A stretch of DNA of 64,000 nucleotides. Source: Octopus sinensis (Eukaryota). The stretch is taken from assembly GCF_006345805.1 (NCBI RefSeq), contig NC_043013.1, forward strand, positions 2,170,001 through 2,234,000. Direction: 5' to 3'. A program made the position numbers and the translations under genes. Below, piece by piece: positions 5,907 to 15,200 of this stretch. The notes below the pieces were generated by a model. It was given only the letters and a program-made list of their open reading frames with translations, did not search any database and was not told the DNA's origin. Position 1 is the first letter of the stretch; the number at the start of each line of letters is the position of its first letter.

Positions 5907-6236
5907 CATTAACGTAAAGTAATGATTCCAATATAGTTTGAAAAGAAGGTCGAAGACATGCCACTGGTCTAAATTGTTTAATGACCTCAGGAGGCAGAAA
6001 AGCTGTTACTGATGGGTAGACTGGTAGCTTAGTTGGGTCATATGGTTTATTCTCTTGGGTAGAACACAATGTAGCAATTATTGCTCCTCCGGGTATCAGT
6101 TTCATTTCATTATCTCCATGTTTCACCATTAATTGTCCACTCTTGTATGCATCCATTATCTTTGCAGTTTCTCTGACAACTTGTGCCAACTGCGATGGCA
6201 ACAGACGGTTAATTTCTGTCAAACATAACCAACACC
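5907..6236 (-). CDS. Dynein exon 19 (last seen): (G)[10 protein letters not shown]...[22 protein letters not shown]
   Basis: ttttAG / GTaagt, 330 nt, phase 1-1; LP-x6-FRPVA-x3-P motif of AAA1. Confidence 0.93.
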
Positions 6237-9200
6237 CTAAAAACAAAATGAATGTCAAGAAAATATTGTCTCAATGTTAAATTCATTATGTATTCTGTAA
6301 TTAATTAGACTTGTTCAGAAGCATCTTAGCAGCAGTCTACTGCAACTGACAGCAAAACAGGAGTATCCCCAGTTTTATGAGCCAAGGAGCAGTGGCACTT
6401 CTAAAGAAAGATCCAAACAAGGGGAACGTCATAGATAACTTCAGGCCCTTCAATCTGCTCAATACAGATTTGAAGAGTTTGGCCAAGGTGCTAGCCAAGA
6501 GGTTGGTGCTTGTCATCGAGAAACTGGTTGACAAGGCGCAAACATGCACCATGCTGGACAAGAGTATCCATGACAACCTCCATCTGATGTGCTACATCAT
6601 TGACAGGGTAGTTAAGGAACCTGGCATGGGTGGGGCACTGATCAATTTCGATCAATCAAAAGCTTTTGATACAGTCAACCATCGCTACATTACTACATCT
6701 AACACCACCACCACCACCACCACTTAATTGCTTACACTAAGTTAACCTCGGCAAGATTTGATCTCAGAATATAGGTGCAGGAGTGGCTGTGTGGTAAGTA
6801 GCTTGCTTACCAGCCACATGCTTCAGTCCCATTGTATGGCACCTTGGGCAAGTGTCTTCTACTATAACCTTGGGCCACTCTAAGCCTTGTGAGTGGATTT
6901 GGTAGACAGAAACTGAAAGAAACCCGTCGTATATATATGAGTAGTACATGTATTTCAAAGGGCCAGCTTTGTCAAACTCTGTGTCACGCTGAATCTCCCT
7001 GAGAACTATGTTAAGGGTACACGTGTCTGTGGAGTGCTCAGCCACTTGCACTTTAACTTCATGAGCAGGCTGTTCCATTGATTGGATCAGCTGGGACCCG
7101 TGTCGTCACAACTGACGATGTACTCCTTTTATATATATATATATATATATATATATATATATATATATATATATATATATGTGTGTGTGTGTGTATATAT
7201 ATGGTGGTGTTGGCTGTCCTTAAAGCGGCTGGTTTCAGCTCCATCTTCTGTGGTTGGGTTGCTGCCTTATACAGCAGCATCTGCTCATTAGTTCAGGTAA
7301 ATGGTCATCTATCCAGACCATTTAACATCATGTGTTTGGTCCGTCAATGATGCCCCCCTTCATCACTTCAGTATATATTGACTCTAGAGTCACTACTGCT
7401 GAGGGGCATCCTGCAAGAACTGGGATGTGGGAGAGGTGTGTCTGCATACGTGGACGATGTCACTGTCATAGTGTCGAGCCAAAACATATTGGCCTGGACG
7501 GCAAGAATATGAAGTGGTAACAGGAGCGAAAATTAACTCAGAAAAGTTGGTGAGCTTGTGGCTTGGCACCTGGAGAGGCAGGTCCATGCCATCCAACAGC
7601 TTCTCCATCATGGGACACTGGACCAACGGACCGGTTAAATTACTTGAGGTCTGGTTTGGACCTGACCTGCAAATGGAGAAGAACTGGGATGAGATAACAA
7701 GTAGGGCAGCCACTCTCACCCAGCAATGTGCTGAAAGAAAGCTATCCCTAAAAGGTCGGGCAGAGGTGGAAAACATGTACTTTGCATCCATCATGCCTTG
7801 TCCTGACTCTACCATCACCAAACTGGAACGCATACTCTTCCGCTTTTTTGTGGAAGGGAAGTGTTCTGATGGTTAGGCGATCCATTTGCTGTCAACACCC
7901 ACTAAATGGAGAGCTGGGCATGCCATGGTTGATGATGTGCAGGCATGTATCGAGACTGCTTTATCTCCGCCACTTCATAGACAATGGTGAACAGGTGTGG
8001 TTGCCGTTTGAGGTGCACTTTTCCACAGCTCATCTCGTTGGCCAAACTGCAGTCATGGATCAAACAGAGACCAAGGCTAGGTGAATGGCACCACAAGTGG
8101 CCGCCTTGCTCTCAAGCAACTCTGCTGTCTGGGACCAAATTTGTGTGACTTCAATTATATGATAACATTTTATAGAGGATTAGTGGAGGTGAGGTTCGAT
8201 GACGTTCTAGGGGAGAATCTGGGTTCAATAGGGAACACCTGGCTCACCTCTTCAGGACAACTTTCAGGCTGGGTCCTATGGACAATCACCAGAGATCCCT
8301 GGCCTGGTAGTGCTGTTTGGAAGCATGGCCCACTTAGGATAAGCTCTACAGGTACAGTTCAAGATACACCGGACCGACTTGCCTGAGATGTGGTCAGAGC
8401 ACTGTAAACCATTCTGCACACACTTGTGCAGTGTCCAACTATTTCAGACTTGTGGGCTTATGTCAAATTGCTGCCATCACATGTAGGATAAATTCGGTTA
8501 TCGGTCAAATCTATCGTGAATATGCTTCACCACTTCCCTTTAACCGGGAAGGCAAGACAGTTTTCATTGTACTGGTGGCTATGGGGAAAGAATGTGTGCG
8601 AAAGGTTTAGAGTCAAACACTTTCCCCTCTGGCCAATCGCTCGTCAACTTTTTCAAATACCACTTGAAAAGGAAGGTTAGAATAAAGAGGGAAGTTTTGT
8701 CTGATAAGAGTTTCAATAAAAGGTGGGTGAATGTAGCAAAGATGGCACATGTGAATGACAAAACCATTTTGAGCATGATGAGAGAGAGAGTGCTTTGCTC
8801 TCATGTGTTTCTTTCTCTGCCTGAGTTTACCATGGTCTTTTTTGTAGGGTTTTCTTTCCATGGATAAATCTCTTTTCCATTTTTACCCCACCTTTTTTGG
8901 CTGTTTACATGTCACAAATGCTTTCGATCCTTTTGAGCATTTTTTTTTCTCTCTTTCTTTCAAAAAGAAAAGTTCTACTCTGTATTGTCCCCTCCATGTT
9001 CAGCCCTGCATGGCTAATAAAGAAAGATGTCTCTTATTCAAGTATAGCTTCCATTTAAATTATTTATTTTTCATCTTAGCATCATTTTTGTTTTTTTGTT
9101 GGTAGGAGAGTTATTAGCCATGCCTCACTAAGAGACCAGCAGTCAAATTACAAACAAAACAGTGGAGTTCTTTTTATCATGCTCATACAATCACATAGAA

Positions 9201-12200: not shown

Positions 12201-15200
12201 CTTGGGAGCCAATGCAGAGGCCTGCATTAAATGATGTGATGATCCTCAATAAGTGTACCGAAGCCCTCTGTGTCACTGGGAATATCATCTCTCTGCCCAT
12301 CACTCCTAAGTATTCAAAGCCATACTTGAAACTTGAGTATATGTTCTGAAATTTATACATACACACACATTACAATTGGTAAATTCCTATAATTATGCAT
12401 TGGCAGCAAGTGGCCTAGTGGTTAGGATGTTGCCCTCAAAATTGCAAGATTATGGTTGCAATTCCCAGACTGGTAACTGCACTGTGTTCTTGAGCAAAAC
12501 ACTTCATTTCACATTGCACCAGTTGAAAATGGAAAACCCTATGACAAACTGATATCCCGTTCAGGATGGTGGGGTGATGTTGGCCTGCCCACCCAGCCAG
12601 TGGAATGGCATCATTTGAAGGCTACAACAATGCAAAGTGTATTGTGACCAGTGGTGTGTAACAACATGTGATAGTTTCGTTGGTACAGTAATGTATTGAC
12701 AGCACAATATCTGTCAGATATAAAATGAGAATATATGACATTATTATATTACGACCAGCAGGTATGGCTGTGTGGTAAGAAACTTGATTCCCAACCACAT
12801 GGTTCTGGGTTCAGTCCCACTGCATGGTGACTTGGGCAAGTGTCTTCTGCTATAACTATGGACCGACAAAAGCCTTGTGACCGCGTGTGTACCGTTGATG
12901 ATTTTTTCCTCCATCTTCCCTTCTTTGGATCTTTCCTTCTCCTATATTTCTGACGAAGACCTCCGCTCGAAATGTTAAACCCTCCTTCTTTCCTTCTTTC
13001 CTGAGCATCCAATAATACTATACTTGTTCCATGTCCTCACGTTGTTGTGTTTTCTCTTTGTGTTTTCATGTTTGGAATAACTATAAATATATATATGTAT
13101 ATATCTATTTGTATGTCCCTTTGTGTCTGTTTGTCCCCCACTGCCGCTTGACAACCAGTGTCGGTGTGTTTACATTCCTGTAACCTAGTGGTTCGGCAAA
13201 AGAGGCTGATAGAATAAGTACTACCCCACCCCCAAAAATGTCCTGGGGTAGATTTGTCCGACAAAGAGCACTTCAAGGCGGTGCCCCAGCATGGCCACAG
13301 TCAAATGACTGAAACAAGTAAAAGATAAAAGATGAAAAGTTCAGGTGATGAGTTGGCAGAATTGTTAGCATGCCAGGCAAGATGCTTAGAGGCTGTTCAT
13401 GTCTTTATGCTCTGAGTTCAAATTCTGCCATAGTTGACTTTGTCTTTCATCCTTTCAGGGTCAGCAAAATAAGCACCAGTTGAGTACTGGGGTCCATGTG
13501 ATCAAATTAACCCCTTACCCCTAAAATTACTGGCCTTGTACCAAAATGTGAAACTAGTACTTTTCTACCATGTTAGTACAACAATACAGTGTCTGTCATA
13601 TTAAGGTATGACCATATTAGGTCAATGGTACACATTGTTAACTTAGTGTTTTTATTTTAGTATCTCAGTAGTATAGTGCCTGTCAGACAGAAGGCGGTGA
13701 GCTGGCAGAACCGTTAGTACGCCGGGCGAAATGCGTAGCCGTATTTCGTCTGCTGTTACGTTCTGAGTTCAAATTCTGCCGAGGTCGACTTTGCCTTTCA
13801 TCCTTTTGGGGTCGATAAATTAAGTACCAGTTACGCACTGGAGTCGATATAATCGACTTAATCCGTTTGTCTGTCCTTGTTTGTCCTCTCTGTGTTTAGC
13901 CCCTTGTGGGTAGTAAAGAAATAGGCCTGACTGCATACAGTTAATGGTCTTCAGTATTGATTTGTTGTCTCTATTTTAGTACAATGATAATGCAGTGTCT
14001 GTTATATTAAGACATGACCATATATGGGCAGTGACCCAATATGAACTCTTCACAGTGTAATGACATGTGAACAAAAGAAACATATTTGAAACATTTTCAC
14101 ATTTTCAACATAATTCATTTGAAACTTTGTCTAGAAAAATGCATTTCCTGATAAATTAAACAGTTTATTCTTGTATTCTTTAAGCTGTTTCAGTCATTTG
14201 ACTGGGGGCATGCTGGAGCACTGCCTTTAGTTGAACAAATCGACCCAGGACTTATTTTTTGTAAGCCTAATACTTATCCTACCTGCTTCTTTTGCTGAAC
14301 CACTTAGTTACAAGGATGTAAACACACCAATATCGGTTGTCAAGAGATGGTGGGGGGGGACAAAAGGACACACACACACACACATGCACGCGCGCGCACA
14401 CACACACACACATATATACTCTTTTACTCTTTTACATGTTTCAGTCATTTGACTGTGGCTATGCTGGAGCACTGCCTTTAGTCGAGCAAATCGACCCCAG
14501 GACTTATTCTTTGTAAGCCTAGTACTTATTCTATCAGTCTCTTTTGCCAAACCGCTAAGTTATGGGGATGTAAACACACCAGCGTCGGTTGTCAAGCGAT
14601 GTTGGGGGGACAAACACAGACACACTAACATATACACACACACTTACATATACATACATATATACGACAGGCTTCTTTCAGTTTTCGTCTACCAAATCCA
14701 CTCACAAGGCTTTGGTTGGCCCGAAGCTATAGTAGAAGACACTTGCCCAAAGTTCCACGCAGTGAGGCTGAACCCAAAATCATGTGGTTGGTAAGCAAGC
14801 TACTTACTACACAGCCACTCTTGTGCCTATATATATTTATATGTATATATATATATATATATATATATATATATATATATATATATATATATATATATGA
14901 CGGGCTTCTTTCAGTTTCTGTTTACCAGATCCAATCACAAGGCTTTGGTCGGCCTGAGGCTATAGTAGCAGATACTTGCCCAAGGTGTAGAAGACACTTG
15001 CCACACCGTGGGACTGAACCCAGAACCACTTGGTTGGTAAGCAAGCTACTTACCACACAGCCATGCCTTGGGAATTTGTAATATAGTTCCATAGACCTAC
15101 CTAGGGTAGGGTGAAATCGTTGGTTAATATTATATTTTTTGTGTTTAATTATGATATTGGAATAAGTACTTTTTGTCTGAACTCTACATATGTACAACAT

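What the first reader, a model, noticed from the sequence alone, without database searches (positions are those of the whole stretch)
5907..12345. Dynein heavy chain with an apparently dead AAA1 ATPase site but an intact reading frame
Seen: the spliced exons give Walker A GSQNGQNKET at the position of canonical GPAGTGKTET. Walker B reads WLCLTEINR (canonical WGCFDEFNR, D to T) and the sensor-I region reads IATLCST (canonical FITMNP, N lost). Flanking scaffold motifs (YGFEYLG, KDL, FRPVA) and splice phases are kept, with no stop in ~1,010 aa. Established: AAA1 is the principal hydrolytic site, essential for dynein motility; DNHD1-type proteins are known to be divergent here. Inference: this is a constrained pseudo-motor with a structural, regulatory or sperm-axoneme role. 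A-to-I recoding cannot rescue it: ACA cannot become an Asp codon and AAT cannot become a Lys codon.
Basis: partly seen in the sequence, partly recalled or inferred. Interest (0 to 1): 0.8.

Follow-up and report, generated by a model that had tools for sequence, protein, structure and literature searches.

The report
Motor-dead class-13 dynein heavy chain
This intact, spliced gene encodes a little-studied "class-13" dynein that has lost the residues of its main ATP-burning site across its whole family, so it likely cannot walk, and it may be the still-unidentified partner of another non-moving dynein seen in sperm tails.

Summary
Observation confirmed: 19 GT-AG exons give 1,011 aa without a stop, with the degenerate AAA1 motifs as described; a spliced contig from a related species joins the three AAA1 exons. 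The gene is not DNAHX (tree test rejects it) and probably not DNHD1. It fits Kollmar's (2016) class-13 orphan heavy chain: outer-arm-beta type tail, normal stalk, long AAA5 in orthologues, low-complexity C-terminal extension. The loss is family-wide, not special to this genome: 0 of 10 members keep Walker A GK[T/S], 0 of 18 keep Walker B DE, while AAA2/AAA3 P-loops and the microtubule-binding domain are conserved. The genome also carries a DNAHX gene (which matches Kollmar's class 12) and a DNHD1-like gene. Kollmar predicted a class-12/class-13 heterodimer without analysing ATP sites; a 2025 cryo-EM preprint found DNAHX paired with an unidentified heavy chain. Class 13 is a candidate (inferred, about 0.4), testable on existing data. 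Known class; its dead AAA1 and this link were not found in print in six searches. The scan noted a similar dead-AAA1 dynein before in a protist.

The parts
12202..12345 (-). Exon: end of linker, YGFEYLG, start of AAA1, first three residues of the degenerate Walker A (GSQ)
   Evidence: joined in X2 contig
10347..10476 (-). Exon: rest of Walker A (NGQNKET; G6, K and T lost), KDL helix
   Evidence: (PF12774 47-82)
5907..6236 (-). Exon: Walker B (WLCLTEINR, 6231-6205), sensor-I region (IATLCST, 6078-6058), family-specific insert after sensor I, FRPVA; last exon of the gene inside the window
   Evidence: (PF12774 86-178, E 7e-7)
10456..12210 (-). Degenerate AAA1 Walker A, split by the 12201-10477 intron
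16880..26533 (-). Five linker exons (26533-26385, 22742-22604, 21120-20894, 17674-17584, 17118-16880)
   Evidence: borders predicted, not RNA-checked
29846..45363 (-). Seven exons of the DHC_N2 region (45363-45192, 44328-44182, 41889-41740, 39793-39647, 34641-34432, 32395-32260, 29989-29846)
   Evidence: (PF08393 for five of them); borders predicted
47716..56915 (-). Four tail exons (56915-56703, 53098-52943, 49615-49554, 47763-47716)
   Evidence: borders predicted
5907..56915 (-). In-window part of a gene of about 272 kb (G000:C17:2,309,786 to 2,037,355) with full outer-arm type tail upstream and AAA2-6, stalk and a terminal low-complexity exon downstream of the window
   Evidence: (49 of 49 profile hits colinear)

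Best explanation
The gene is a full-length, spliced dynein heavy chain of the outer-arm-beta-derived orphan family that matches Kollmar's class 13, and its AAA1 site lacks the ATPase residues throughout the family, so it is likely a non-motile subunit that would bind microtubules and a partner chain rather than produce force. Shown: gene structure, motif loss, family placement, intact AAA2 and AAA3 P-loops, lost AAA4 P-loop in orthologues, normal-length stalk, best-conserved microtubule-binding domain. Inferred: AAA1 does not hydrolyse ATP, so the ring is held in one state with nucleotide in AAA2/AAA3 as structural filler (about 0.85). Inferred: the beta-type tail pairs with the alpha/gamma-type tail of class 12 (DNAHX), giving a motor-dead copy of the outer dynein arm in which class 13 supplies the microtubule grip that DNAHX has lost, acting as a static cross-link, brake or assembly aid in flagella (about 0.4).
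For: Motifs: Walker A GK[T/S] in 0 of 10 family sequences (K kept in 7, R in 2, N here; T/S in none), Walker B DE in 0 of 18, sensor-I N in none; sensor-II R in 1 of 7 orthologues and arginine finger in 1 of 8 sequences. AAA2 and AAA3 Walker A intact in 8 of 8, AAA4 P-loop lost in 6 of 6 orthologues. Conservation profile inverted: sea urchin vs brachiopod identity 0.46 in AAA1L but 0.70 in the MTBD; a canonical beta pair has 0.85 in AAA1L; DNAHX MTBD 0.47. Placement: best solved relatives of an orthologue are outer-arm beta chains (975-1118 bits vs 491 for DNAH5, same top class); tail and motor trees put the gene with these orthologues next to beta chains; forcing it into DNAHX costs 384 log-likelihood units. 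Class-13 marks: AAA5 longer in 3 of 3 complete orthologues, low-complexity C-terminus in 3 of 3 and an in-frame 537-aa acidic repeat exon here. Constraint: 9 synonymous vs 7 non-synonymous among 16 of 21 listed differences to X2, pN/pS 0.22, at worst 0.38. Partner: class-12/13 heterodimer proposed by Kollmar (PMC5100056); DNAHX found with an unidentified heavy chain with a canonical stalk; DNAHX gene present in this genome and spliced in the same runs X2 and X1.
Against: No biochemical data. This gene keeps the Walker B glutamate and has a lysine one place after the usual P-loop lysine, and 7 of 10 family members keep that lysine, so nucleotide binding or slow turnover is not excluded. No named class-13 or DNHD1 sequence was available: class identity rests on described features and elimination. 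Long branches: the gene falls at the base of the family in the motor tree instead of inside molluscs. DNAHX reaches fish, frogs, placozoans and sponges whereas the 9 named family hits were echinoderm, hemichordate, brachiopod, annelid and mollusc (limited searches). The preprint favours single-headed DNAH6/7 as partner, 60% of DNAHX particles were monomers, and other heavy-chain models fitted about equally. Co-presence in a run is expected of any two ciliary genes; X4 held this gene but showed no listed DNAHX exon piece.
Confidence: 0.68

Rival explanations
1. Class-13 non-motile chain that works without DNAHX, replacing the canonical beta chain next to a canonical alpha/gamma chain at some outer-arm sites, or acting alone as a static microtubule cross-link.
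For: Beta-type tail; strongly conserved stalk and MTBD; taxon ranges of the two families may differ.
Against: Both tails diverged on long stems of their own, as expected if they changed together; Kollmar's trees led him to pair them.
Confidence: 0.17
2. Plain DNHD1 (class 11) orthologue with the already reported AAA1 degeneracy.
For: DNHD1 is reported to lack the catalytic Walker B residues; no DNHD1 reference sequence could be put in the trees.
Against: The gene has a full outer-arm-beta tail and both class-13 marks; a different divergent heavy chain at G000:C28:11.35-11.48 Mb has a degenerate Walker B, groups with single-headed inner-arm chains and had no DHC_N1 hit, which fits DNHD1 better (its single-headed type tail is recalled, not checked).
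Confidence: 0.05
3. A slow but working motor that uses a non-canonical AAA1 or shifts hydrolysis to AAA3.
For: Stalk and MTBD intact and conserved; AAA3 Walker A intact; Walker B glutamate present in this gene.
Against: AAA1 motif positions vary freely among orthologues, unlike a new catalytic solution; AAA3 Walker B is DD as in other axonemal chains; AAA1 is the powering site (PMC8754002).
Confidence: 0.08
4. Decaying pseudogene or mis-spliced prediction.
For: Long branch; only about 30% identity to orthologues.
Against: Open frame, spliced 11-kb contig with the same junctions, pN/pS below 0.4, same loss in all orthologues, single match in the genome.
Confidence: 0.02

Closest known systems
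Class-13 dynein heavy chain (DHC13; Kollmar 2016, PMC5100056)
   Same: Metazoan orphan class with class-4 (outer-arm beta) type tail, longer AAA5, low-complexity C-terminal extension; predicted to pair with class 12.
   Different: The paper states that ATP sites were not analysed and expected altered force production; here AAA1 (and AAA4) motifs are lost family-wide. No class-13 sequence from the paper could be compared directly.
DNAHX / dynein-X (Chai et al., bioRxiv 10.1101/2025.01.18.633724); matches Kollmar's class 12 by tail and stalk (my inference)
   Same: Constrained, outer-arm-derived heavy chain with degenerate AAA1; non-motile by cryo-EM; found in a two-headed complex.
   Different: DNAHX derives from the alpha/gamma chain, keeps Walker A GKT in 66 of 70 and Walker B DE in 40 of 70 members and has a disrupted stalk/MTBD; this family is beta-derived, far more degenerate in AAA1 and keeps a normal stalk. 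DNAHX is a separate gene in this genome (C2:107.60-107.78 Mb).
DNHD1 (class 11)
   Same: Orphan heavy chain reported to lack catalytic Walker B residues and needed for sperm flagella.
   Different: Separate class; a different gene on C28 is the better candidate for it here (inferred).
Outer-arm dynein beta heavy chain (DNAH9/11/17; class 4)
   Same: Nearest canonical relative in tail and motor.
   Different: Active motor with canonical AAA1; two such genes with WGCFDEFNR exist in this genome (L036, L038).

Membership tests
Dynein heavy chain superfamily | Tail, linker, six AAA modules and stalk in order in one gene | tested here: met
   49 colinear profile hits over about 250 kb; Pfam DHC_N2 and AAA_6; model of an orthologue's AAA1-3 matches dynein motors
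Class 13 (DHC13) | N-terminal tail like outer-arm class 4 | tested here: met
   Tail trees
Class 13 (DHC13) | C-terminal low-complexity extension | tested here: met
   3 of 3 complete orthologues; in-frame terminal exon of 537 aa here (splice predicted, not RNA-checked)
Class 13 (DHC13) | Longer AAA5 domain | tested here: inconclusive
   Met in 3 of 3 complete orthologues (243-286 and 232-258 residues per 100 of the beta chain; two unrelated chains were also long in the second window); exons of this gene only partly recovered there, length not measured
Class 13 (DHC13) | Motor-domain clade with Kollmar's DHC13 sequences | not testable with these tools
   Paper's sequences and trees not readable in the supplement; the family is monophyletic and distinct in my tree
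DNAHX / class 12 | Branches from outer-arm alpha/gamma with XP_041462850 | tested here: not met
   P0076 has the four residues numbered in the preprint; gene outside that clade, AU p 6e-7 with 1,000 replicates
DNAHX / class 12 | Insertions that disrupt stalk and MTBD | tested here: not met
   Normal stalk length and gap-free MTBD
DNHD1 / class 11 | Orthology to human DNHD1 | not testable with these tools
   No named DNHD1 sequence retrieved; atlas look-up of the C28 candidate gave only generic dynein names
Outer-arm beta chain (class 4) | Canonical AAA1 motifs GPAGTGKT, DEFNR, TMNP, GLR, SR | tested here: not met

The most novel reading that the evidence does not exclude
Class 13 is the unidentified second head of dynein-X: animals carry a complete motor-dead duplicate of the outer dynein arm (class 12 + class 13), and the minor 'DNAH9' (3.18%) in the sea urchin mass-spectrometry list is this protein, since sea urchin inventories list only one true beta chain.
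Probability: 0.4. Interest if true: 0.8.

Novelty: new member of a known kind. Interest (0 to 1): 0.55.

Why it matters
Dynein motility depends on AAA1. A whole animal family that has kept tail, ring, stalk and microtubule-binding domain since before the split of deuterostomes and lophotrochozoans but dropped AAA1 catalysis would be a third kind of pseudo-dynein beside DNHD1 and DNAHX. It joins two unconnected papers: a 2016 prediction of a class-12/13 dimer and a 2025 structure with a missing partner. The open question of that partner can be tested by looking up one accession and refitting an existing map. For this window alone the gene is an ordinary member of that family.

Tried and rejected
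Complex prediction of the N-terminal parts of DNAHX (1-225) and a class-13 chain (1-220): no verdict, alignments were not used, partner fold uncertain. Word-based homologue search with the single exon found none among 152 candidates of 192-2000 aa; PDB sequence search with the exon gave only E 0.84 to a dynein. No listed holder of the exon is on record as RNA; runs X1-X4 are RNA by guess and their tissue is unknown; X3 gave no long piece on either gene, which is no evidence. Atlas look-ups gave generic dynein names. A DNHD1 clinical paper gave no usable domain list in the passages seen. A full IQ-TREE bootstrap timed out; the fast run's support labels shift on rerooting, so only topology and the AU test are used. 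The open frame at 3828-3619 looked like the next exon but has the wrong phase; the next exon is outside the window. The spliced aligner skipped one exon and proposed false ones in repeats; corrected by hand. A-to-I rescue and an alternative Walker A exon were rejected. Five of the 21 differences to X2 were not listed, so the motif codons in that species are not fully checked.
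Full report
Observation. Nineteen exons between 56915 and 5907 give 1,011 aa without a stop. The window is G000:C17:2170001-2234000 and the exon has one match in the genome. Orthologue searches and a profile trace the gene from about C17:2,309,786 to 2,037,355: 49 of 49 profile hits are colinear, from an outer-arm type tail through AAA6. The organism is probably a cephalopod (my guess from genome size and repeat style; not tested).

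Expression and constraint. One 11,063-nt contig of run X2 (RNA by guess; about 96% alike, so a related species) holds the three exons back to back; X4 joins two of them. Of 21 differences in these exons 16 were listed: 9 synonymous, 7 non-synonymous, against 133 and 470 sites; pN/pS 0.22 (p 0.003), 0.38 (p 0.03) if all unlisted ones were non-synonymous.

Family. The 12 best hits among 1.84 billion representatives all score higher against this family than against any canonical class. Named members: Saccoglossus, Capitella, Strongylocentrotus, Lingula, three bivalves, two gastropods, mostly annotated 'dynein beta chain'. Their closest solved relatives are outer-arm beta chains. FastTree trees of tail (39 sequences, 1,114 columns) and motor (50 sequences, 2,841 columns) put the gene with them at support 1.0, next to beta chains; trees were rooted on cytoplasmic dynein 1, a chosen subset of the retrieved proteins was used, and single-headed, kelch-tailed and tail-less rows were left out of the tail tree. 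P0076 is DNAHX itself (5,272 aa; V2221, S2322, T2324, K2393 as in the preprint); placing the gene with DNAHX is rejected. Kollmar 2016 (PMC5100056; read: main text parts 1-6 of 9, passages, supplement part 1 of 5 and term searches; figures and trees not seen) defines class 13 by a class-4 type tail, longer AAA5 and low-complexity C-terminus, class 12 by a class-3 type tail and an aberrant stalk, and class 11 as DNHD1. The family meets the class-13 description. DNAHX meets the class-12 description (tail tree; no MT-stalk Pfam hit in its rows); the preprint cites Kollmar but never names class 12 or 13. The genome holds all three orphan types: this gene, a DNAHX gene at C2:107.60-107.78 Mb and a divergent single-headed type gene at C28, likely DNHD1 (inferred, no reference).

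The ATP sites. Walker A GK[T/S]: 0 of 10 family sequences that cover it; Walker B DE: 0 of 18 (2 of 20 lack the region; two of the 18 look like one gene); sensor-I N: none; all share an insert of about 13 residues after sensor I. Sensor-II R survives in 1 of 7 orthologues and the arginine finger in 1 of 8; both appear as K here (predicted exon). AAA2 and AAA3 P-loops are intact in 8 of 8, AAA4 is lost in 6 of 6 orthologues. AAA1L, the best conserved part in a canonical beta pair (0.85), is among the least conserved here (0.46), while the MTBD is the best conserved (0.70; also highest, 0.49, for this gene). An AlphaFold model of the Saccoglossus AAA1-3 (mean pLDDT 73.6) keeps the dynein fold, which says the scaffold is kept, not that the site is dead. 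Results against: this gene retains the Walker B glutamate; most orthologues retain the P-loop lysine and may still bind nucleotide, as DNAHX does.

Mechanism. AAA1 powers dynein (PMC8754002, passage). Loss of several catalytic elements with free variation at those positions points to a locked ring (inferred). Kept tail and MTBD point to partner binding and microtubule binding as the selected functions (inferred). Canonical outer arms pair a class-3 with a class-4 tail; Kollmar predicted the same for classes 12 and 13. The DNAHX preprint (read: parts 1-5 of 6, supplement text; figures, including the mass-spectrometry chart and alignments, not seen) found DNAHX in a heterodimer with an unidentified chain that has a canonical stalk. 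Its text lists both DNAH17 (34.83%) and DNAH9 (3.18%) as beta chains, and leaves 5.6% for DNAHX, DNAH6 and DNAH7 together, while Kollmar lists one class-4 gene in each of two sea urchins and beta duplications only in chordates and hexapods. The minor 'DNAH9' may therefore be class 13. No accession is given, and this genome has two canonical beta genes, so invertebrate duplications do occur. Both orphan genes are spliced in X2 (10,935-nt DNAHX contig) and seen in X1; this is weak, since any flagellated tissue would express both.

Novelty. Class 13 is known. Its AAA1 loss, the DNAHX = class 12 equation and the partner link were not found in six full-text searches of a library that lacks most subscription papers; figures of the two key papers, which I could not see, may bear on this. 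An earlier scan note reports a similar dead-AAA1 dynein in a protist (not checked). Verdict: real feature, new member of a known but uncharacterised class, with a testable link to an open question; interest 0.55.

Noticed in passing
G000:C2:107,600,000-107,776,000 (L070-L087), minus strand: DNAHX/class-12 gene, spliced in X2 and X1; its AAA1 is more degenerate than most of its family (Walker A GTPDVGKKE, Walker B LADG). DNAHX hits also include land and freshwater snails and a caecilian, which by recall fertilise internally, so the preprint's link to external fertilisation is not strict.
   Followed up: partly
G000:C28:11,350,000-11,483,000 (L092-L106), minus strand: Divergent single-headed type heavy chain with intact Walker A and Walker B FDNVNR; likely DNHD1/class 11.
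   Followed up: partly
Unplaced contigs C12478, C12462, C9094, C10357, C8740, C8702, C8595, C6303, C9183, C8701, C6932, C8320, C8698, C10908 (L022-L051): A second set of canonical dynein genes with very short introns, several in near-identical copies; looks like DNA of another organism (a parasite or symbiont) in the assembly.
   Followed up: no
G000:C1:74.6 Mb (L036) and C1:32.7 Mb (L038): Two canonical outer-arm beta genes, a duplication outside the lineages Kollmar lists.
   Followed up: partly
G000:C2:112,723,293-112,723,688 (L069): Isolated DNAH2-like AAA1 small-domain stretch with no neighbouring dynein exons; perhaps a pseudogene fragment.
   Followed up: no
G000:C18:34,266,254-34,268,521: Weak AAA_7 matches inside one open frame of 5,458 aa; a very large intron-free AAA protein gene.
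   Followed up: no
window 6350-8383 (+), 35904-37092 (-), 59808-60260 (-), 47170-47595 (+), 24178-24495 (-): Broken reverse-transcriptase (LINE-like) fragments, plus many microsatellites and short interspersed repeats, inside the introns; family names not tested.
   Followed up: no
P0042 (unnamed, 4,111 aa): Heavy chain with Walker B FDAATR that groups at the base of class 13 in the motor tree and near beta chains in the tail tree; may resemble the basal orphans Kollmar mentions, or be long-branch attraction.
   Followed up: partly
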